Below are positions 1 through 44,734 of a DNA stretch of 44,734 bases, one piece after another. The stretch lies in the IMG/VR virus record IMGVR_UViG_3300048636_000162; one strand, given 5' to 3'. The stretch comes from a virus. Within the stretch, counting starts at the first letter, position 1. Every line of letters starts with the position of its first letter. The notes under the pieces were generated by a model. The model was not told the DNA's origin. It saw only the letters and a list, made by a program, of their open reading frames with translations, and searched no databases. The position numbers and the translations under genes are program-made.

Positions 1-127
1 CCATCCGAGACGAGAGCGATCGGAAGGCAGAGCAAAACGGATTCCGTCGGATAGCCGCCCTCGTCTACATCAATGACGACGGGCAGTTGCGGGTCTTAGA
101 TGAAGACACAGGCAAGCCCATCGGGGA
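1..127. repeat. Terminal overlap copy 1: identical to 44608-44734 (circular closure of an assembly, or a short terminal redundancy)
   Basis: Both ends read ccatccgagacgagagcgatcgg...ggcaagcccatcgggga. The match is exact over 127 nt, so the unique length is 44607 bp. Confidence 0.95.
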
Positions 128-39760: not shown

Positions 39761-40115
39761 TGCGGCTCACTACAGGAAAAGTGACATGACTGTCTCCGTT
39801 GGGGTTGATTCGTGCCCAGTACTCATCCTCGGACTCGTCCCAAACCCACGTTCCAAGGGGCGGAAAGAAAGCGAGTTCATCGAGTTCGATTTGCTCGACC
39901 CACCCCTCGGCAGCACCCTTTGATGCGAAGTGCTCGAACGTTTCTTTCCAGTGATGGAACCGCGCTACCTCGACAGGATCAGGCTCCTCACGGTGCCCCT
40001 TGCGCTGGTTTCGAGCAATGAGCTGAATGAGGGCTTCCTGCTTAGTAAGCTCTCGCTGAATCGCCTCATTGAAGTTCGCCACGATAGGGTGGGGAATGAA
40101 GGGCTTCTCACTCAT
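39753..40115 (-). CDS. Hypothetical protein (120 aa)
   Basis: Track ORF. It overlaps the SNF2 start by 8 nt. Confidence 0.6.
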   Translation of the reverse strand: MSEKPFIPHPIVANFNEAIQRELTKQEALIQLIARNQRKGHREEPDPVEVARFHHWKETFEHFASKGAAEGWVEQIELDELAFFPPLGTWVWDESEDEYWARINPNGDSHVTFPVVSRND

Positions 40116-40566
40116 CTGTCTCTCCTAGCTGCTCTTTCCAGTCTGGTTCGTTTCTCACTGCGTACACGTTGCGGTACATCTCACTGAACACTGTTGCCAG
40201 TGTACGGAAGTTTGTCAAGAAAGTTTCGATGTCTGTATCCTGACCCATGCTGTCGATCACATCGACCAGCTCGTCACGCTGAGAGTTCCAGACGTTGAGG
40301 GTCTGGTGCAGCGGAAGCATCGGCTTGGAGGGCATCTTCATGTCGACACGGGCGGACCACGGAAGGGTGTCGTGCGTCGGCTCTTCCCAGTCGCTCGGGA
40401 AACTCCATCTGCGAGGCCAGGACGTGTCCTCCACAGCGCCGAGTTCGGTCAGCGCTTGCCGAATCGTGTTACGGCTGTAGGGAAGCGCCTGGAGCATGTC
40501 TTTGAGGGACGCACTGCCTACCCGCTTGAGGTAGTCACGCACCTCACTGCGTCGCTCTGCTTTCAT
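40108..40566 (-). CDS. Putative winged-helix DNA-binding protein (152 aa)
   Basis: gaaggag SD precedes ATG 40566. The N-terminus VRDYLKRVGSASLKDMLQALPYSRNTIRQALTELGAV looks wHTH-like. Confidence 0.5.
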   Translation of the reverse strand: MKAERRSEVRDYLKRVGSASLKDMLQALPYSRNTIRQALTELGAVEDTSWPRRWSFPSDWEEPTHDTLPWSARVDMKMPSKPMLPLHQTLNVWNSQRDELVDVIDSMGQDTDIETFLTNFRTLATVFSEMYRNVYAVRNEPDWKEQLGETDE

Positions 40567-40706
40567 GATGCAAGCTCCTTCAGAATGTCCTGGCACTCGT
40601 GCCAGGCGTCATGCGACGCACGGTCAATGACAGGAATGTCGCACTCACCGCAATAGCGACGTTGCCCGGACCTGTCGAGGGGGAGAGGACGATATCTGTG
40701 TCTCAC
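40563..40706 (-). CDS. Tiny Cys/His protein (47 aa), below the track cutoff
   Basis: GTGA junction upstream and ATGA junction downstream. The sequence is RRYCGECDIPVIDRASHDAWHEC. Confidence 0.45.
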   Translation of the reverse strand: MRHRYRPLPLDRSGQRRYCGECDIPVIDRASHDAWHECQDILKELAS

Positions 40707-40954
40707 GTTGTCACCCGACTCTCAGCGTTATGCCACCCGTTACGCTCCCCGTAGAGGAAGGACTTCAGGGGCGTGTCGTCAGGGCCGGTCTTGCCTCGGT
40801 GATGCGAGTGGACTTCGCCTCGCTCTACCGCCTTGCGGATCGACTCCACGTTACGGAATCTGTATCCGTTGCAGTACCCGCACCCTCCCTCAAGGCAAGT
40901 GAGGTCAGGATAGGGCCAACAGATTCGTCTTTGAATGGTGCCTGGCTTGATCAT
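40703..40954 (-). CDS. Small Cys-rich protein (83 aa)
   Basis: ATG 40954 (MIKPGTIQRRICWPYPDLTCLEGGCGYCNGY...). The upstream part of track ORF 40703-41143 is discounted. Confidence 0.5.
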   Translation of the reverse strand: MIKPGTIQRRICWPYPDLTCLEGGCGYCNGYRFRNVESIRKAVERGEVHSHHRGKTGPDDTPLKSFLYGERNGWHNAESRVTT

Positions 40955-41061
40955 TTCTTGTCGTCCCTCTCCTTGAGTGCGTTGTGGTAACCGATTCCTG
41001 ACCCGATGAACATGCCGATGCAGAGCCAGAAGACCGCAATGGCGATAGCTACTGTGTCCAC
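40951..41061 (-). CDS. Tiny membrane peptide (36 aa)
   Basis: GTG 41061. VDTVAIAIAVFWLCIGMFIGSGIGY is hydrophobic. Its TGA overlaps the next ATG. Confidence 0.4.
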   Translation of the reverse strand: MDTVAIAIAVFWLCIGMFIGSGIGYHNALKERDDKK

Positions 41062-41174
41062 GGAATGTCCTCGATCTCGTCGTAGTAGATGGACTCCTCA
41101 CCCAGAAGTACCTCTTTGGCCTGCTGCCAGGGAGTGAGGTCATCCCACTCCGGAGCGGTGTCCTTGCGCGTCAC
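41049..41174 (-). CDS. Tiny acidic protein (41 aa)
   Basis: atggagga SD lies 6 nt before GTG 41174 (VTRKDTAPEWDDLTPWQQAKEVLLGEESIYYDEIEDIPWTQ). Confidence 0.45.
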   Translation of the reverse strand: MTRKDTAPEWDDLTPWQQAKEVLLGEESIYYDEIEDIPWTQ

Positions 41175-41254
41175 AGCCGATCCTCCATTTGATCTGCCAA
41201 CAGGGTTGCGGTGAAGAGGAGAACGCCGAAGGCCACGATGCCGAGGTAGATCAC
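41171..41254 (-). CDS. Tiny membrane peptide (27 aa)
   Basis: GTGA junctions at both ends. VIYLGIVAFGVLLFTATLLA is hydrophobic. Confidence 0.35.
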   Translation of the reverse strand: MIYLGIVAFGVLLFTATLLADQMEDRL

Positions 41255-41397
41255 TTGGCACCGTCCGATGCATCCAGAGCGGCGTTGTAGCCCGCGATGT
41301 AGGCGTCCCGCTCGGCTTCCCGCGTCGCCAGATCATCCAGGCCCCAGTTGACGTGCTGATTCAGGTAACGCTCGGCGGCGGTCTCTGCTGCGCTCAT
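41251..41397 (-). CDS. Small hypothetical protein (48 aa)
   Basis: ATG 41397 lies in an ATGA junction with the pentapeptide gene stop (MSAAETAAERYLNQHVNWGLDDL...). The rest of track ORF 41251-41625 is a repeat-frame artefact. Confidence 0.5.
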   Translation of the reverse strand: MSAAETAAERYLNQHVNWGLDDLATREAERDAYIAGYNAALDASDGAK

Positions 41398-42152
41398 CGC
41401 AGCCCCCCAAGACGGCGGATCTCTTCGTCTGACCAGCCGGGAGGCAGGTCGGCTCCGCGCAGGTTGGCTCCGTGCAGGTCGGCTCCGTGCAGGTCGGCTC
41501 CGTGCAGGTTGGCTCCGTGCAGGTCGGCTCCGCGCAGGTCGGCTCCGTACAGGTCGGCTCCGTGCAGGTCGGCTCCGTGCAGGTCGGCTCCGTGCAGGTC
41601 GGCTCCGCGCAGGTCGGCTCTGCACAGGTCGGCTCCGCGCAGGTCGGCTCCGTACAGGTCGGCTCCGCGCAGGTTGGCTCCGCGCAGGTTGGCTCCGCGC
41701 AGGTCGGCTCCGTACAGGTTGGCTCCGCGCAGGTTGGCTCCGCGCAGGTCGGCTCCGTACAGGTCGGCTCCGTACAGGTGCTGTCGGGCAAGGGCTTCCC
41801 CATCAATGCGCTCGACGACACGAACCTGTGGGACGCGCAGCTTGCCCCCTTCATCTCCTCGTGCCTCTTCGAATCGGTAAGCGACGAGAAGCAGACAGAG
41901 CGCCCGGAAACCTCCACTTGCCATTCCGGCCCACGTTGTTGCTACACACAGTCCGTCACCTTCTCGGCGGGGGCATGACGAGTCGTGGCTGTCAAGCTCG
42001 TAGCGAGAGGTCTCCTGCCCCGGCTCCGGCCACACAAACCCGTTTCGGGTCTTGCCGTCGAACCCAATGGATTTGATTCCCCAGGAGTCATAGCCCTCAG
42101 GGAGTTCCCGACCCTCTGTGATGATGTCGAGGGGGTTACGGTACTCAGCCAT
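41394..42152 (-). CDS. Pentapeptide-repeat protein: roughly 125-aa N-terminal domain plus 22 consecutive A(D/N)LxG repeats
   Basis: The C-terminal half reads LYGADLYGADLRGANLRGANLYGADL...HGANLRGADL. ATG 42152 follows the leader caccacgacgaaaggcaagatca. Confidence 0.85.
   Translation of the reverse strand: MAEYRNPLDIITEGRELPEGYDSWGIKSIGFDGKTRNGFVWPEPGQETSRYELDSHDSSCPRREGDGLCVATTWAGMASGGFRALCLLLVAYRFEEARGDEGGKLRVPQVRVVERIDGEALARQHLYGADLYGADLRGANLRGANLYGADLRGANLRGANLRGADLYGADLRGADLCRADLRGADLHGADLHGADLHGADLYGADLRGADLHGANLHGADLHGADLHGANLRGADLPPGWSDEEIRRLGGLR
41446..41775. repeat. 22 head-to-tail 15-bp units (aggtYggctccgYRc on the + strand) encoding the pentapeptide repeats
   Basis: Units were counted by hand. 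Variation is confined to unit positions 5, 11, 13 and 14. Confidence 0.9.
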
Positions 42153-42186
42153 TGATCTTGCCTTTCGTCGTGGTGTGAACAGTTTA

Positions 42187-42315
42187 TCAGAAAAAAGTGA
42201 TGATGGAAGCGCCGATTGCCAGCCCTGCCAGGACGGCGACAGTATTGATCAGAATCAGCCACAGGTAGGGCAGGATGCCGTCTGCTCGCCGCTGCATGTC
42301 ATGCTCGCCGGTCAT
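42187..42315 (-). CDS. Tiny membrane peptide (42 aa; alternative ATG 42297 gives 36 aa)
   Basis: ILPYLWLILINTVAVLAGLAIGASIITFF is hydrophobic. agagga SD lies before ATG 42315. Confidence 0.45.
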   Translation of the reverse strand: MTGEHDMQRRADGILPYLWLILINTVAVLAGLAIGASIITFF

Positions 42316-42571
42316 ACAGCCCGTCCTCTGAGTCGATGTCAAGCAGGTCGAGGATACCGCCCGCCGAGTTGAGGATGAAGTCCCAGGACAGGCCGTCCTC
42401 GCGGAACATCGTTTCCGGATCGCAGGTGTGGCCTTCCTCTGCCCAGTGTGCCTCAAAAGCCCCTTGCACCGCTTGATCTATCTCGCGGTCGGTGCGGTCG
42501 ATCTTGGCGTCGAACAGACGCATCCAGAGTGCGTCCGTGATGTACGGGTGCATCAGTATGTCGGTGCTCAT
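42299..42571 (-). CDS. Hypothetical acidic protein (90 aa)
   Basis: gaaagga SD precedes ATG 42571 (MSTDILMHPYITDALW...). Confidence 0.6.
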   Translation of the reverse strand: MSTDILMHPYITDALWMRLFDAKIDRTDREIDQAVQGAFEAHWAEEGHTCDPETMFREDGLSWDFILNSAGGILDLLDIDSEDGLYDRRA

Positions 42572-42735
42572 CGTGCGATCCTTTCGTTGTGCTGCCGCAT
42601 GAAGCGGTCGAAGCTCTCTTGTGAGGCGGCGCGAAGGTGCTCTTTGGCTGCACGGTCGCTCTTGATCCATTTGGCAAACTCGCGGCTAGGTGCCTGTCGA
42701 GTGCTGTCCTGTCGAGTGCTGTCCTGTCGAGTCAC
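42568..42735 (-). CDS. Small protein (55 aa) starting with a (TRQDS)x2 repeat; below the track cutoff
   Basis: GTGA junction upstream and ATGA junction downstream. By hand count this frame has about 24/33 GC3 over its 3' half, versus about 15/33 for the alternative extension of the 42299 ORF. Confidence 0.45.
   Translation of the reverse strand: MTRQDSTRQDSTRQAPSREFAKWIKSDRAAKEHLRAASQESFDRFMRQHNERIAR
42693..42735. repeat. 2.9 copies of a 15-bp tandem repeat (cctgtcgagtgctgt)
   Basis: Direct reading: 42693-42707, 42708-42722, and a partial copy at 42723-42735. Confidence 0.85.
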
Positions 42736-43220
42736 GACAGGTGTCCCCGCGTAAGGGCGTAGCCGCCGTCTGAGTGCATCTTCCCCCGCCGGTACTCACG
42801 ATCCCCGTTGGCGTGGTCGTTCGATGGGCAACGCTTCACCAACCGATTGTTACGGGCTTTCTCAGTGTGCGGGTGCCCTGTGCATGGTGCGCCGTCATTG
42901 AAGATCATGCTGCTCACGCTGTAGACGAGGTGAAAGGTCATGTCCATTCCGCACCCGTTGACCTTGAGTCCCCCGCTCGGGTGTTCACGAAACAGGCCCG
43001 TTCGGGCGATGAGGCGGTCAAGGGAGCGGGGAAACACCTGGCCGAGCGAGTCTTTCGCCATGACGTAGGCGGAAATACGTCGCTGCATTCCGCTGCGGCT
43101 GACGTGACGAACTGTCGTGTATACCGTGTCCCCAGCGCTCAAGAGCTGCCGAAGAGTGTCAACGGCGTCGCGCTGATCTGCCGTTTTGATGTAGCTCGGG
43201 TAGGTAACCTTGCGTCCCAT
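42732..43220 (-). CDS. Hypothetical protein (162 aa)
   Basis: Track ORF. ATG 43220 follows the leader caccacgaaaggcaagatc. Confidence 0.65.
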   Translation of the reverse strand: MGRKVTYPSYIKTADQRDAVDTLRQLLSAGDTVYTTVRHVSRSGMQRRISAYVMAKDSLGQVFPRSLDRLIARTGLFREHPSGGLKVNGCGMDMTFHLVYSVSSMIFNDGAPCTGHPHTEKARNNRLVKRCPSNDHANGDREYRRGKMHSDGGYALTRGHLS

Positions 43221-43304
43221 GATCTTGCCTTTCGTGGTGTCCGCTTAGTCTCATCAGGACCCGTTAGCGGTGTACGGATCGACGCCTCTCGGCGTTTCGA
43301 CAGT

Positions 43305-43574
43305 TCAGGTGTGACGGTAGTAGTTGCGAATCTCGGCCCGCCCTGTGTCCTTGATCCATTCGGACAGCTTCGCCGAGAGGTTGAAACGCTCCCGCTCGCC
43401 CTTGCGGTAGTCCCAGACGTTGATGACCTCAAAGACCGGTCCGTCTACGGTGTCCCAGTGAAGGTCGATGTACGGCCCGCCGTTGTATGTGGCGACGATC
43501 CGCAGACCGTCGACGGTGCGAAACGCGGTGCGCTGTGCAACGACCTTCTGGTCCGGCTCGATGTAGGTGTTCAT
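43305..43574 (-). CDS. Early hypothetical protein (89 aa)
   Basis: gaaaggcagacca precedes ATG 43574. A canonical promoter lies upstream. Confidence 0.65.
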   Translation of the reverse strand: MNTYIEPDQKVVAQRTAFRTVDGLRIVATYNGGPYIDLHWDTVDGPVFEVINVWDYRKGERERFNLSAKLSEWIKDTGRAEIRNYYRHT

Positions 43575-43602
43575 TGGTCTGCCTTTCGTTGTGGTGTATC
43601 TA

Positions 43603-43641
43603 ACGGTATCGGATGTGTGCGGGAATGTCAAGAGAAAAGTT
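43603..43641 (-). promoter_or_regulatory. Early promoter with a conserved 16-nt box
   Basis: Read on the minus strand: AACTTTTCTCTTGACA (43641-43626), 17-nt spacer, TACCGT (43608-43603). Confidence 0.6.
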
Positions 43642-43873
43642 AGTCAAGCATCCCGCACACCGTGGCGACAATATCCATTTCGATGTTCTCTCGCGGGTCA
43701 TTGCCGTCTGCGCTGCCGAAGAGGTTGGCGATCAGCTCGACCTGTCCGCGCAGGTACTCACTGCCGAGCATGTCAGCAACGTCCGCGCCCGTCCAAAGGT
43801 CATCCACGGCCCGAAGTGCTTGGACGTACAGTATGTCGAGCGTCGGGTGTGATGTGTGGTGCTTGAGGTCCAT
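43640..43873 (-). CDS. Early acidic hypothetical protein (77 aa)
   Basis: gaaaggcgagatc precedes ATG 43873. Confidence 0.65.
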   Translation of the reverse strand: MDLKHHTSHPTLDILYVQALRAVDDLWTGADVADMLGSEYLRGQVELIANLFGSADGNDPRENIEMDIVATVCGMLD

Positions 43874-43910
43874 GATCTCGCCTTTCTAGCGGTATGTGGT
43901 GATGGGTACT

Positions 43911-43949
43911 ACTCTGCCGAGGTTCGGGAAGAATGTCAAGAGAAAAGTT
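43911..43949 (-). promoter_or_regulatory. Early promoter with a conserved 16-nt box
   Basis: Read on the minus strand: AACTTTTCTCTTGACA (43949-43934), 17-nt spacer, CAGAGT (43916-43911). Confidence 0.45.
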
Positions 43950-44169
43950 AGTGTTTCGCAGGGAACAGTACGTCCTTAAGGGTTTGCCGGGTGAGCTTCC
44001 GGTTCTGAAACCGGGACAGGTTATAACGGCCCAGTGCGCGGTCCTTCGTCCACACGTAGACGCATTCCCCCACTTGACCTTCGTGGTACAGCTCTCCGTA
44101 AAAGATGTGTTCGCGGGAGTTGCCGTAAGCGTCGGTCACTGTCCGGGTGATGCGAACCTTCTTTGCCAT
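43948..44169 (-). CDS. First early hypothetical protein (73 aa)
   Basis: gaaaggcgagatc precedes ATG 44169 (MAKKVRITRTVTDAYGNSREHIFYGELYHEG...). Confidence 0.65.
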   Translation of the reverse strand: MAKKVRITRTVTDAYGNSREHIFYGELYHEGQVGECVYVWTKDRALGRYNLSRFQNRKLTRQTLKDVLFPAKH

Positions 44170-44204: not shown

Positions 44205-44243
44205 ATCATGTCGAGGGTTGTGGGTTTTGTCAAGAGAAAAGTT
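44205..44243 (-). promoter_or_regulatory. Leftmost-arm early promoter with a conserved 16-nt box
   Basis: Read on the minus strand: AACTTTTCTCTTGACA (44243-44228), 17-nt spacer, CATGAT (44210-44205). Confidence 0.45.
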
Positions 44244-44362: not shown

Positions 44363-44564
44363 GTAACGGTTACTGTAACGCTGGAGATGCGAACAGACAC
44401 AAGCGCCAAGCCCCTTCGGGGCAGGCGCTATTTGTTTGAAAGCGGGATGGTCGAATTCTTCCGTTACTGCAACATGTTACGGTAACAAATTTAGTGTTAC
44501 TGAAACACAGTGTTACTGAAACATGTTACCGATTGTGGGCGTTACTGAAATCTGTTACGGTAAC
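44363..44564. repeat. Cluster of 12 GTTAC/GTAAC pentamers (candidate operators or origin iterons)
   Basis: Three copies lie in 44363-44379 and nine in 44463-44564. They include TGTTACTGAAAC x2, CGTTACTGAAAT, and the inverted pair GTTACGGTAAC x2. Confidence 0.7.
44402..44437 (+). terminator. Intrinsic-terminator-like hairpin with a T-run in the control region
   Basis: agcgccaagcccc / ttcg / ggggcaggcgct, followed by atttgttt. Confidence 0.6.
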
Positions 44565-44567
44565 ACT

Positions 44568-44734
44568 ATGAGTGACAGAATTGCGAAGCTGCGAGAGCGG
44601 CGTAAGTCCATCCGAGACGAGAGCGATCGGAAGGCAGAGCAAAACGGATTCCGTCGGATAGCCGCCCTCGTCTACATCAATGACGACGGGCAGTTGCGGG
44701 TCTTAGATGAAGACACAGGCAAGCCCATCGGGGA
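44568..44734 (+). CDS. 5' part of a gene that wraps the window junction; hypothetical protein (132 aa when joined to 128-359)
   Basis: ATG 44568 (MSDRIAKLRERRKSIRDESDRK...) runs in frame through the 127-bp overlap into ORF 87-359. An alternative in-frame ATG lies at 44523. There is no clear SD. Confidence 0.6.
   Translation, partial: MSDRIAKLRERRKSIRDESDRKAEQNGFRRIAALVYINDDGQLRVLDEDTGKPIG
44608..44734. repeat. Terminal overlap copy 2 (identical to 1-127)
   Basis: Same comparison as for copy 1. Confidence 0.95.

What the first reader, a model, noticed from the sequence alone, without database searches (positions are those of the whole stretch)
41394..42152. Early-arm pentapeptide-repeat protein built from 22 near-identical 15-bp units
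Seen:
- The ORF is 252 aa. Its C-terminal half is 22 uninterrupted A(D/N)LxG pentapeptides.
- The DNA is 22 head-to-tail 15-mers (41446-41775). They differ only at the D/N codon and at the x codon (CGC/CAC/TAC/TGC, giving R/H/Y/C, all single-nucleotide steps).
- The roughly 125-aa N-terminal domain (WGIKSIGFDGKTRNGFVWPEPG...CPRREGDGLCVATTWAG) is non-repetitive.
- The gene lies among short early genes, upstream of the replication genes.

Established: pentapeptide-repeat proteins form right-handed quadrilateral beta-helices. Members such as MfpA, Qnr and AlbG mimic B-form DNA and bind DNA gyrase.

Inference:
- A phage-encoded DNA mimic could retune host gyrase/topoisomerase.
- Alternatively it could act as a decoy for DNA-targeting defences (restriction or similar).
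- The DNA-level perfection of the repeats is unusual for this family. It suggests recent expansion and possible copy-number variation.

Caveat: the array (330 bp) is longer than the 127-bp end overlap. If that overlap reflects an assembly k-mer, the unit count may be mis-assembled.
Basis: partly seen in the sequence, partly recalled or inferred. Interest (0 to 1): 0.8.

Follow-up and report, generated by a model that had tools for sequence, protein, structure and literature searches.

The report
Phage rIIB-like domain fused to pentapeptide rod
This is a real phage gene whose protein joins a domain related to the tail end of the classic T4 rIIB protein to a stiff beta-helix rod; the rod is encoded by a 15-bp minisatellite that gains and loses units between near-identical phages, which fits a fast-evolving host-interaction protein better than a gyrase-binding DNA mimic.

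Summary
- ORF 41394-42152 (-) encodes 252 aa. Residues 129-238 form 21 full A(D/N)LxG units plus a terminal ADLPP, coded by near-identical 15-mers. One unit is ADLCR.
- Both domains are predicted with high confidence (AF2 pLDDT 93.7). Residues 126-238 form a pentapeptide-repeat beta-helix.

New findings:
- The N-terminal 125 aa define a family of at least 274 clusters with no Pfam model. It is almost always followed by pentapeptide repeats, in phages and prophages that are probably actinobacterial.
- This domain matches the C-terminal domain of T4 rIIB. Support comes from Foldseek (TM 0.55-0.62) and hhalign (P=0.002; 0 of 200 shuffles reach the score).
- DNA-level uniformity of the units is a family trait. 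Each lineage has its own homogenised codon set. Near-identical prophages differ only by indels of 2, 3 or 5 units.
- No k-mer of 51 bases or more repeats inside the array, so a k=127 assembly is unambiguous.

The DNA-mimic/gyrase idea is not supported. The protein scores far below the curated MfpA and Qnr cut-offs, the rod is short, and acidity is not conserved in the family.

My best reading is an early host-interaction or counter-defence binding protein. Its function is untested.

The parts
41394..42152 (-). Complete coding sequence, 252 aa: N-terminal rIIB-C-like domain, pentapeptide-repeat beta-helix, and a short C-terminal cap
   Evidence: ORF list. Pfam PF00805, E=6e-46. 54 close homologues with the same architecture. 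AF2 pLDDT 93.7, pTM 0.85.
41778..42152 (-). N-terminal domain, residues 1-125. It has a mixed alpha/beta fold, no Pfam, PHROG or PDB sequence match, and is related to the C-terminal domain of T4 rIIB.
   Evidence: AF2 of the domain alone gives pLDDT 91.7. Foldseek against BFVD returns many RIIB and DUF7666 proteins at TM 0.55-0.62. hhalign against an rIIB C-terminal profile gives P=0.0019, and 0 of 200 shuffles reach that score. There is no Pfam hit and no PDB sequence hit. phmmer finds 274 clusters at 50% identity.
41439..41768 (-). Array of 22 fifteen-base units coding residues 129-238: 21 full units A(D/N)L(R/H/Y/C)(G/R) plus a terminal ADLPP. This makes 5.5 coils of beta-helix.
   Evidence: TRF reports period 15, 22.4 copies, 91% matches. 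Units were listed in codon register. Variation is confined to unit positions 4, 10, 11 and 13, and no k-mer of 51 bases or more is repeated. DSSP shows one short strand per unit.
41394..41438 (-). C-terminal tail GWSDEEIRRLGGLR plus the stop codon. It includes a short helix (residues 242-247), conserved in the closest clade, that probably caps the beta-helix.
   Evidence: Alignment of homologues shows P-x-G-W-(S/T)-D-E-E-x-x-x-x-G-G. DSSP places a helix at 242-247.
42161..42166 (-). Ribosome-binding site GAAAGG, 8 nt upstream of the ATG
   Evidence: Read directly from the sequence.
41251..41397 (-). Downstream 48-aa ORF. Its ATG overlaps the stop codon of the repeat gene (ATGA), so the two lie in one operon and are probably translationally coupled.
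   Evidence: Sequence and ORF list. No family match.

Best explanation
Shown:
- The gene encodes a soluble two-domain protein in the replication-gene arm of a circularly assembled 44.6-kb tailed phage.
- Residues 1-125 form a conserved alpha/beta domain related to the C-terminal domain of T4 rIIB. It is predicted to sit at the N-terminal end of the beta-helix.
- Residues 126-238 form a right-handed quadrilateral beta-helix of 5.5 coils. A and L point inward. D/N, R/H/Y and G lie on the surface. A short helix closes the C-terminal end.
- The helix is encoded by a 15-bp minisatellite. Within each phage lineage the units are kept alike at the DNA level, and whole units are gained and lost. This changes the length of the rod by a quarter turn per unit. 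The only residues that vary between units are surface residues.

Inferred:
- The protein acts by stoichiometric binding, not catalysis. No polar residue of the N-domain is invariant across the wider family.
- It acts early in infection as a host-takeover or counter-defence factor.
- The rIIB-like domain carries the conserved activity. The repeat rod is a fast-evolving binding surface or spacer under arms-race pressure.
- The host target is unknown.
For: Fold and architecture:
- Pfam PF00805.
- AF2 pLDDT 93.7 and pTM 0.85 for the whole protein and 91.7 for the N-domain alone.
- Foldseek matches to solved pentapeptide-repeat structures.

A real, large family:
- 54 close homologues.
- 274 clusters at 50% identity with E of 0.001 or better.
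- 120 of 148 listed members carry at least 4 repeat units directly after the domain.
- A profile search finds 318 proteins with the same architecture among the top hits.

rIIB link:
- Foldseek against BFVD lists about 15 RIIB proteins, 3 DUF7666 proteins and several giant-virus ankyrin-repeat proteins. TM is 0.55-0.62, rmsd about 3 A over about 110 columns, probability 1.00.
- hhalign of the domain profile against a diverse rIIB C-terminal profile scores 24.05 with P=0.0019. It aligns residues 7-117 with T4 rIIB 194-308. The column-shuffle null is 11.9 +/- 2.2 with a maximum of 19.4.

Minisatellite behaviour:
- Each lineage has its own codon set: GCC GAC CTG xxx GGA here, GCG GAC CTS xxx GGG in L001, and GCG GAC CTG TCC GGC in L003.
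- Mean unit identity is 0.74-0.94 in 35 loci.
- L016 and L017 are 100% identical across the gene and 1 kb of flank, except for a 30-bp indel. L036 and L038 differ by a 75-bp indel. L020 and L021 differ by a 45-bp indel.

Early-region context in relatives:
- The gene follows integrase and an HTH gene in L003, and sits near SNF2, WhiB, primase-polymerase or ERF genes in L001 and L002.

Literature:
- RIIB is an anti-RexAB factor and is sensed by gasdermin/CARD and Tmn defence systems (PMC10312443; PMC13001434).
- RIIB residue 219, which decides Tmn activation, lies inside the domain that aligns here.
Against: - No experiment exists for any member of the family.
- The rIIB link is remote, at 17% identity. 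Two earlier hhalign runs with a less diverse, full-length rIIB alignment were only marginal (P about 0.04-0.07). Plain HMM searches find nothing. Pfam's rIIB family PF26926 is not among the precomputed domains of any family member.
- The biochemical role of the rIIB C-terminal domain is itself unknown, so the homology transfers little mechanism.
- No partner gene is conserved across the family, and the window has no rIIA.
- 'Early' is inferred from gene order, not from expression.
- Unit-number differences come from short-read assemblies, and some could be collapse artefacts.
- Length variation could be neutral.
Confidence: 0.5

Rival explanations
1. DNA mimic. The beta-helix imitates B-form DNA and binds host gyrase or topoisomerase, or it acts as a decoy for DNA-targeting defences such as restriction enzymes.
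For: - The fold class is the same as MfpA, Qnr and AlbG, which appear among the Foldseek and PDB sequence hits.
- The repeat region is mildly acidic, with 16 D, 10 R and a net charge of -6.
- Some relatives, such as ADLSG x11 in L003, are strongly acidic.
- DNA mimics are a recurrent anti-defence strategy in phages (bioRxiv 10.1101/2025.06.06.658234).
Against: - It falls far below the curated cut-offs: MfpA 52 of 360 bits, Qnr 49 of 240 bits.
- Its identity to Qnr and MfpA structures is about 20-30%. Identity to consensus-type repeats (synthetic Beta1, Np275/276, HetL) is 39-51%.
- It has 5.5 coils. From memory, MfpA has about 8 coils per monomer in a 100-A dimer. Family members with 2-7 units are common.
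- Charge is not conserved in the family, and 20% of members are net positive.
- The conserved part of the family is the N-domain, not the rod.
- A catalogue of 268 anti-defence proteins never uses 'repeat', 'solenoid' or 'beta-helix', so it lists no protein of this kind.
Confidence: 0.15
2. Neutral minisatellite. The protein works through its N-terminal domain. The repeat rod is only a tolerant spacer or solubility tag, and its length and surface drift by replication slippage with no adaptive meaning.
For: - Unit number ranges from 1 to 35 with no preferred value.
- Only four nucleotide positions vary here, so a handful of mutations spread by duplication explains everything.
- All four variable positions lie in CpG dinucleotides and all changes are transitions. 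This could be mutational bias rather than selection.
Against: - The N-domain plus repeat architecture is kept in nearly all of the 274 or more clusters. These include members with old, divergent, non-homogenised repeats such as P0057, P0090 and P0126. The rod itself is therefore under selection.
- No synonymous change is seen among the 21 units, while 23 unit-position differences are all non-synonymous and on the surface.
Confidence: 0.2
3. The unit count, or the array itself, is an assembly artefact.
For: - The array (330 bp) is longer than the 127-bp overlap that hints at the assembler's k.
- Many homologues sit on contigs of about 1 kb that may end at such arrays.
- Frameshifted translations of such arrays exist in public protein sets: P0074, P0088 and P0176.
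Against: - The longest exact internal repeat is 50 bp. No k-mer of 51 bases or more, including k=127, occurs twice in 41380-41820, so the graph path is unique.
- The reading frame stays open and homologous on both sides.
- Arrays of 20-35 units occur in 30-80-kb contigs, and several of those contig ids carry what look (from memory of IMG numbering) like isolate-genome numbers.
Confidence: 0.07
4. The 15-bp repeats work as DNA, for example as iterons of a replication origin or as protein-binding sites, and the open reading frame is incidental.
For: - There are 22 direct repeats close to the replication genes.
- All six frames are open across the array.
Against: - The protein-level pattern A(D/N)LxG is conserved across lineages that use different codons.
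- The array is always in frame with a conserved N-domain.
- There is no GC-skew feature at the array.
- The 15-bp period is not a multiple of the helical repeat.
Confidence: 0.03

Closest known systems
T4 rIIB (protector from prophage-induced early lysis; precomputed Pfam PF26926), C-terminal domain, residues about 194-308
   Same: - The predicted fold is the same (Foldseek TM 0.55-0.62).
- The profile-profile alignment is co-linear and spans the whole domain. Motifs match: K-x-V ... PG ... C-x(2-4)-G-L-(C/H)-V ... a hydrophobic strand ... DV ... K-(L/M)-R.
- Both are phage proteins outside the structural genes.
   Different: - The domain is N-terminal here and C-terminal in rIIB.
- There is no HTH domain.
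- There is no rIIA partner.
- There is no direct HMM or Pfam match.
- The hosts are probably Actinobacteria rather than Proteobacteria.
- The domain is fused to pentapeptide repeats, which rIIB lacks.
DUF7666 proteins and giant-virus 'ankyrin repeat proteins' that carry the same fold
   Same: They share the fold of the N-domain. In the giant-virus proteins the fold is also joined to a repeat scaffold.
   Different: - The repeat type differs (ankyrin versus pentapeptide).
- There is no sequence-level match to DUF7666 in Pfam.
- These relationships rest on Foldseek alone.
Consensus-type pentapeptide-repeat proteins: Np275/Np276, HetL, Alr5209 and the synthetic Beta1 solenoids (PDB 2j8k, 3du1, 6omx, 4yfo)
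   Same: - These are the best sequence and structure matches to residues 126-238. Identity is 39-51% and the PDB profile E-value is as low as 1e-32.
- The A(D/N)LxG consensus is regular and has no loops.
   Different: - Those proteins have no rIIB-like domain and are not encoded by DNA-identical units.
- The score against NCBIfam Alr5209 is 106 bits against a cut-off of 125.
MfpA / Qnr / AlbG / McbG, the topoisomerase-protecting DNA mimics
   Same: Same fold class. Weak sequence matches, with E-values of 1e-5 to 1e-9.
   Different: - The protein is far below the family cut-offs.
- The helix is shorter and lacks the Qnr loops.
- Acidity is not conserved in the family.
- An extra N-terminal domain is present.
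- Dimerisation was not tested.

Membership tests
Pentapeptide repeat family (Pfam PF00805) | Tandem A(D/N)LXX pentapeptides above Pfam's gathering score | tested here: met
   153.9 bits against a cut-off of 20.2, E=6.3e-46. 22 units are in register.
Pentapeptide repeat family (Pfam PF00805) | Right-handed quadrilateral beta-helix fold | tested here: met
   In the AF2 model, pLDDT is 93-97 over residues 121-230 and falls to 88 for 231-240. There is one strand per unit. Foldseek matches solved pentapeptide-repeat structures at E as low as 6e-11. This is a prediction, not an experimental structure.
MfpA/Qnr-type DNA-mimic pentapeptide proteins | Score above the curated family cut-offs (NCBIfam MfpA and Qnr models) | tested here: not met
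   MfpA 52 bits against 360. Qnr 49.2 bits against 240. QnrA, B, C, D, E, S and VC all fall far below their cut-offs.
MfpA/Qnr-type DNA-mimic pentapeptide proteins | Strongly and continuously electronegative surface, conserved among relatives | tested here: inconclusive
   Net charge of the repeat region is -6 (16 D, 10 R, 7 H). The family mean is -0.16 per unit and 20% of members are net positive. No electrostatic surface was computed.
MfpA/Qnr-type DNA-mimic pentapeptide proteins | C-terminal dimerisation giving a rod about 100 A long, the size of a gyrase-bound DNA segment | not testable with these tools
   No multimer prediction was available. The monomer has 5.5 coils, roughly 26 A by the usual 4.8 A rise per coil (the geometry is from established knowledge).
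MfpA/Qnr-type DNA-mimic pentapeptide proteins | Binds or protects DNA gyrase | not testable with these tools
   This needs biochemistry.
rIIB (T4-type) | C-terminal domain (T4 residues about 194-308) | tested here: met
   Foldseek TM is 0.55-0.62 to many RIIB models. hhalign gives P=0.0019, and 0 of 200 shuffles reach that score. This is a remote relationship. Earlier, cruder runs were marginal.
rIIB (T4-type) | N-terminal helix-turn-helix domain | tested here: not met
   T4 rIIB residues 7-50 hit HTH families. The window protein has no HTH hit.
rIIB (T4-type) | Direct match to the family model (PF26926) or to rIIB by HMM or BLAST | tested here: not met
   PF26926 is on all listed rIIB proteins but on none of the family members. 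An HMM of the rIIB C-terminal domain finds nothing in the window, and tblastn gives E above 0.1.
rIIB (T4-type) | Partner gene rIIA in the same genome | tested here: not met
   tblastn of T4 rIIA against the window gives a best E-value of 1.1.
rIIB (T4-type) | Needed for growth on RexAB-carrying lysogens | not testable with these tools
   This needs genetics.

The most novel reading that the evidence does not exclude
The C-terminal domain of rIIB is an autonomous viral module. It is shared by T4-like phages, phages that probably infect actinobacteria, and giant viruses, and it is coupled to interchangeable scaffolds (HTH, pentapeptide repeats, ankyrin repeats). In the phage family described here, the pentapeptide rod is a minisatellite-encoded contingency locus. 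Changes in its unit number and surface residues retune recognition of, or escape from, host defence sensors.
Probability: 0.3. Interest if true: 0.78.

Novelty: new variant of a known kind. Interest (0 to 1): 0.6.

Why it matters
- rIIB is one of the most famous genes in genetics, yet its biochemical action is still unknown. Recent work shows that several defence systems sense it (PMC10312443, PMC13001434).
- If its C-terminal domain is a portable module that also occurs in a large family of probably actinobacterial phages, welded to a rigid repeat rod, the domain can be studied apart from T4.
- The finding also gives a second, independent architecture in which to ask what the domain binds.
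- Separately, a beta-helix whose length is set by an unstable 15-bp minisatellite is a clean natural example of tandem-repeat-driven protein variation in phages. It would matter for host-range and defence-evasion evolution if the variation proves adaptive.
- It is also a practical warning. Such arrays are open in all six frames and produce frameshifted or truncated entries in protein databases.

Tried and rejected
- Nucleotide megablast of 40000-44000 and tblastn of the N-domain against 50,697 GenBank phage records: no match.
- Pfam, PHROGs, NCBIfam and PADLOC on the N-domain: nothing.
- PDB by sequence profile: only repeat hits, or noise for the N-domain.
- Foldseek of the N-domain against PDB: nothing, best E=0.28.
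- Foldseek of the full model: dominated by the beta-helix, so it says nothing about the N-domain.
- hhalign against a full-length, low-diversity rIIB alignment: marginal, with P=0.066 and 0.035, and 9 of 150 shuffles as good. It became convincing only after I cut the alignment to the C-terminal domain and added IMG/VR relatives.
- Third large protein search with a diverse N-domain profile, hoping for bridging hits that carry DUF7666 or PF26926: only the top 120 were listed, and all were ordinary family members.
- Exact-match searches for this phage's own gene in metagenome and viral collections, and exact-protein look-ups: nothing. Unit number could therefore not be compared within the same phage species.
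- Conserved-neighbour analysis: noisy in high-GC DNA, and no partner is shared across the family.
- Literature search for DUF7666: no paper. Searches for phage pentapeptide-repeat anti-defence proteins: nothing specific.
- Iteron or origin idea: no skew signal. Rejected on codon evidence.
- A diversity-generating retroelement as the source of variation: considered and set aside without a dedicated search. The variation consists of transitions at G/C sites. No reverse-transcriptase family turned up among the 25 window ORFs scanned, but most plus-strand ORFs were not scanned.
Full report
**1. The observation**

The window is 44,734 bases at 60.6% GC, and its two ends share an exact 127-bp overlap, so it is a circular assembly of about 44.6 kb. 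ORF 41394-42152 on the minus strand is 252 aa. Tandem Repeats Finder reports one array at 41444-41779 with period 15, 22.4 copies, 91% matches and no indels.

In codon register, residues 129-233 are 21 full pentapeptides and residues 234-238 are a terminal ADLPP.
- Unit 10 is ADLCR, because GGA has become AGA.
- The units therefore vary at four nucleotide positions of the 15-mer (4, 10, 11 and 13). The other 11 positions are invariant in all 21 units.

There are seven distinct 15-mers, and mean pairwise identity is 90.5%. The ATG is supported by a GAAAGG site 8 nt upstream and by alignment of the N-terminus with homologues. The stop codon overlaps the ATG of a 48-aa downstream ORF (ATGA), so the gene sits in an operon.

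**2. Is the unit count an assembly artefact?**

The longest exact repeat inside 41380-41820 is 50 bp. No k-mer of 51 bases or more, including k=127, occurs twice. Population heterogeneity cannot be excluded. I could not find this phage's own sequence elsewhere to compare.

**3. Genome context**

The plus strand from about 3 to 29 kb carries the large terminase, portal, major head protein and a 1,596-aa protein.

The minus strand from about 44 to 29 kb carries short ORFs, then an HTH protein, then the replication and recombination genes:
- an SNF2 helicase;
- an RNase_T-family exonuclease;
- a PD-(D/E)XK nuclease;
- an AAA_24 ATPase;
- a primase-polymerase with an AAA_25 ATPase domain (no helicase family matched);
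- a family A DNA polymerase.

AT skew changes sign at the arm boundaries. The gene is thus promoter-proximal to the replication genes. 'Early' is inferred from this order, not from expression. There are no tRNAs. No sequenced phage in the GenBank collection resembles the region.

**4. The repeat domain**

Pfam PF00805 matches at E=6e-46. AlphaFold2 with a 55-sequence alignment gives pLDDT 93.7 and pTM 0.85, with one short strand per pentapeptide through residues 129-236. Foldseek against the PDB returns only pentapeptide-repeat structures. The best are consensus-type proteins: the synthetic Beta1 solenoids, Np275/276, HetL and Alr5209, at 39-51% identity. Qnr, MfpA and AlbG come lower, mostly at about 20-30% identity. 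The PDB profile search gives the same order.

NCBIfam provides a direct membership test. The protein is below every curated cut-off: Alr5209 106 of 125 bits, MfpA 52 of 360, Qnr 49 of 240. It is a generic, near-consensus pentapeptide-repeat helix of 5.5 coils, not a member of the MfpA/Qnr group.

**5. The N-terminal domain is the conserved core of a large family**

Searching residues 1-128 alone found 54 proteins at 43-79% identity. Nearly all consist of this domain followed by pentapeptide repeats; the few without repeats are fragments. An exhaustive phmmer search over 1.84 billion cluster representatives found 274 clusters at E of 0.001 or better. Of the 148 listed beyond the first set, 120 have at least 4 repeat units directly after the domain. 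Most of the rest are fragments. A profile search found 318 proteins with the same picture.

The domain has no Pfam, PHROG, NCBIfam, PADLOC or PDB sequence match. Across the wider family only P61 and G67 are invariant. The two cysteines (C60, C69) and D66 are replaced in some members. This argues for a binding domain rather than an enzyme.

**6. Where the family lives**

- Relatives sit in phage or prophage early regions. L003 has integrase, HTH_17, this gene and then a YqaJ exonuclease. L001 and L002 have WhiB, SNF2, ERF, RNA ligase and primase-polymerase.
- 35 IMG/VR viral contigs carry the domain. Several have ids that look (from memory of IMG numbering) like isolate-genome numbers.
- In the species-representative genome set, the only hits are an Actinomycetes MAG and a Bifidobacteriaceae MAG.
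- The host range is therefore probably Actinomycetota. For this window that is an inference.

**7. Relationship to rIIB**

The N-domain alone folds confidently (pLDDT 91.7). It has no counterpart in the PDB (best E=0.28). In the viral predicted-structure library, after one family member, the hits fall into three groups:
- DUF7666 proteins;
- about 15 RIIB proteins from T4-like and other large phages;
- several giant-virus 'ankyrin repeat proteins'.

These hits have TM 0.55-0.62, rmsd about 3 A over about 110 columns, and probability 1.00.

T4 rIIB itself has an N-terminal HTH (residues 7-50), and the rest is not covered by the Pfam copy at hand. I tested the link by sequence in three steps.
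- With a full-length, low-diversity rIIB alignment, hhalign was only marginal. P was 0.066 and 0.035, and 9 of 150 column shuffles did as well.
- I then cut the rIIB alignment to T4 residues 185-312 and added 80 IMG/VR relatives.
- With that alignment the score rose to 24.05 (P=0.0019). It aligned residues 7-117 here with T4 194-308 from end to end. None of 200 column-shuffled controls reached it (null 11.9 +/- 2.2, maximum 19.4).

Structure and profile agree, so I take the domain to be a remote homologue of the rIIB C-terminal domain, with a probability of about 0.8. It is not an rIIB orthologue, for four reasons:
- it has no HTH;
- the window has no rIIA;
- family members carry no PF26926;
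- the domain order is reversed.

**8. What is known about RIIB**

RIIA and RIIB let T-even phages overcome RexAB, by an unknown mechanism. RIIB expression alone activates a gasdermin/CARD system (PMC10312443). RIIB also directly activates Tmn. There, residue 219 (D in T2, S in T4) decides activation (PMC13001434). That residue lies inside the domain that aligns to the N-domain here. The domain is therefore one that host defences 'see'.

**9. The array behaves as a minisatellite across the family**

- Each lineage has its own homogenised codon set. It is GCC GAC CTG xxx GGA here and in L002, GCG GAC CTS xxx GGG in L001, and GCG GAC CTG TCC GGC in L003.
- In 35 further loci, mean unit identity is 0.74-0.94 and unit numbers run from 4 to 35. 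Over 294 family proteins the count runs from 1 to 26 with no preferred value.
- Near-identical loci differ by whole units. L016 and L017 are 100% identical over the gene and 1 kb upstream, except for a 30-bp indel. L036 and L038 (96.9% identical) differ by 75 bp. L020 and L021 differ by 45 bp.
- Four clusters with almost the same N-domain (P0005, P0007, P0008, P0009) have 7, 10, 5 and 11 units.
- L005 contains a duplicated block of 7 units.
- Other members (P0057, P0058, P0062, P0090, P0126) have old, divergent repeats. The architecture is therefore ancient, and homogenisation is a lineage property.

The DNA-level 'perfection' is thus typical of this family. Copy-number variation is shown, with the caveat that these are mostly short-read assemblies.

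**10. The DNA-mimic idea**

For:
- the fold class is the same;
- the repeat region is mildly acidic (16 D, 10 R, 7 H; net -6);
- some relatives are strongly acidic.

Against:
- it fails the curated MfpA and Qnr cut-offs;
- it has 5.5 coils, and many relatives have fewer than 2 coils;
- charge is not conserved (mean -0.16 per unit, 20% of members net positive);
- the conserved element of the family is the N-domain.

Dimerisation and electrostatics could not be computed here. I put this reading at 0.15.

**11. Best explanation**

The protein is a soluble two-domain factor made from the replication-arm operon. It acts by binding. The rIIB-like head carries the conserved function. The pentapeptide rod is a rigid surface or spacer whose length and exposed residues change quickly. 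Each unit adds a quarter turn. Only positions i-1, i+1 and, in one unit, i+2 vary.

The combination of three features fits a host-interaction or counter-defence role:
- the likely early position of the gene;
- homology to a domain that defence systems are known to sense;
- hypervariability confined to surface residues.

The steps from 'binding protein' to 'counter-defence' are inference. The target is unknown. Overall confidence is 0.5.

**12. Verdict**

The feature is real and correctly described. The fold assignment is right and the specific DNA-mimic/gyrase reading is not supported. I rate it a new variant of known kinds, with interest 0.6.

Noticed in passing
window 41454-41768 (the 21 full units): All four variable nucleotide positions of the 15-mer (4, 10, 11, 13) lie in CpG dinucleotides. 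Every change is a CpG to TpG or CpA transition, and every one is non-synonymous. The two CpG cytosines at third codon positions (3 and 12) never change. The cause, whether a mutational hotspot, methyl-cytosine deamination or selection on surface residues, is undecided.
   Followed up: partly
window 42693-42732: A perfect 15-bp tandem repeat of 2.7 copies (CTCGACAGGACAGCA on the minus strand). It lies in the 61-bp gap between the genes at 42732-43220 and 42299-42670. An inverted repeat, CCTGTCG-TGA-CTCGACAGG, spans the stop codon of the upstream gene. It may be a regulatory site.
   Followed up: partly
window 44493-44523 and 44205-44233: A 16-bp unit repeated 1.9 times (AGTGTTACTGAAACAC, internally palindromic) lies in the region between the two transcription arms. 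The only sigma-70-like promoter match of the region (TTGACA-17-CATGAT, minus strand) lies at the head of the minus-strand arm.
   Followed up: no
proteins P0074, P0088, P0176 (public protein sets): These entries begin as normal family members and then continue in a shifted frame of the repeat array (for example ...GPTCAAPIWRG......EPLRRVPLRR...). The arrays are open in all six frames, as in the window. Sequencing errors or real frameshifts therefore yield long spurious tails and spurious overlapping ORFs.
   Followed up: partly
L005 3001-3717; L030 2803-4185: L005, the closest viral contig at 77% identity in the N-domain, has a duplicated block of 7 units. L030 has the longest array seen, with 35 units in a 460-aa protein.
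   Followed up: partly
protein P0161 (411 aa): This is a family member whose N-domain carries an insertion. It is followed by a helical, non-pentapeptide C-terminal region with repeated 'A-x-x-A-G' motifs. It is the only clear exception to the domain-plus-pentapeptide architecture among the listed hits.
   Followed up: no
window 40703-41143 (-) and 42732-43220 (-): Two neighbouring ORFs match PHROG families of unknown function: phrog_10140 (C-terminal 75 aa only, so the true start is probably later) and phrog_12365. Both contain several Cys/His clusters.
   Followed up: no
window 1-127 and 44608-44734: There is an exact 127-bp terminal overlap, so the contig is a circular assembly of about 44,607 bp. 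No integrase turned up among the 25 ORFs scanned against Pfam or PHROGs. Most plus-strand ORFs were not scanned, so this is not a whole-window statement.
   Followed up: partly
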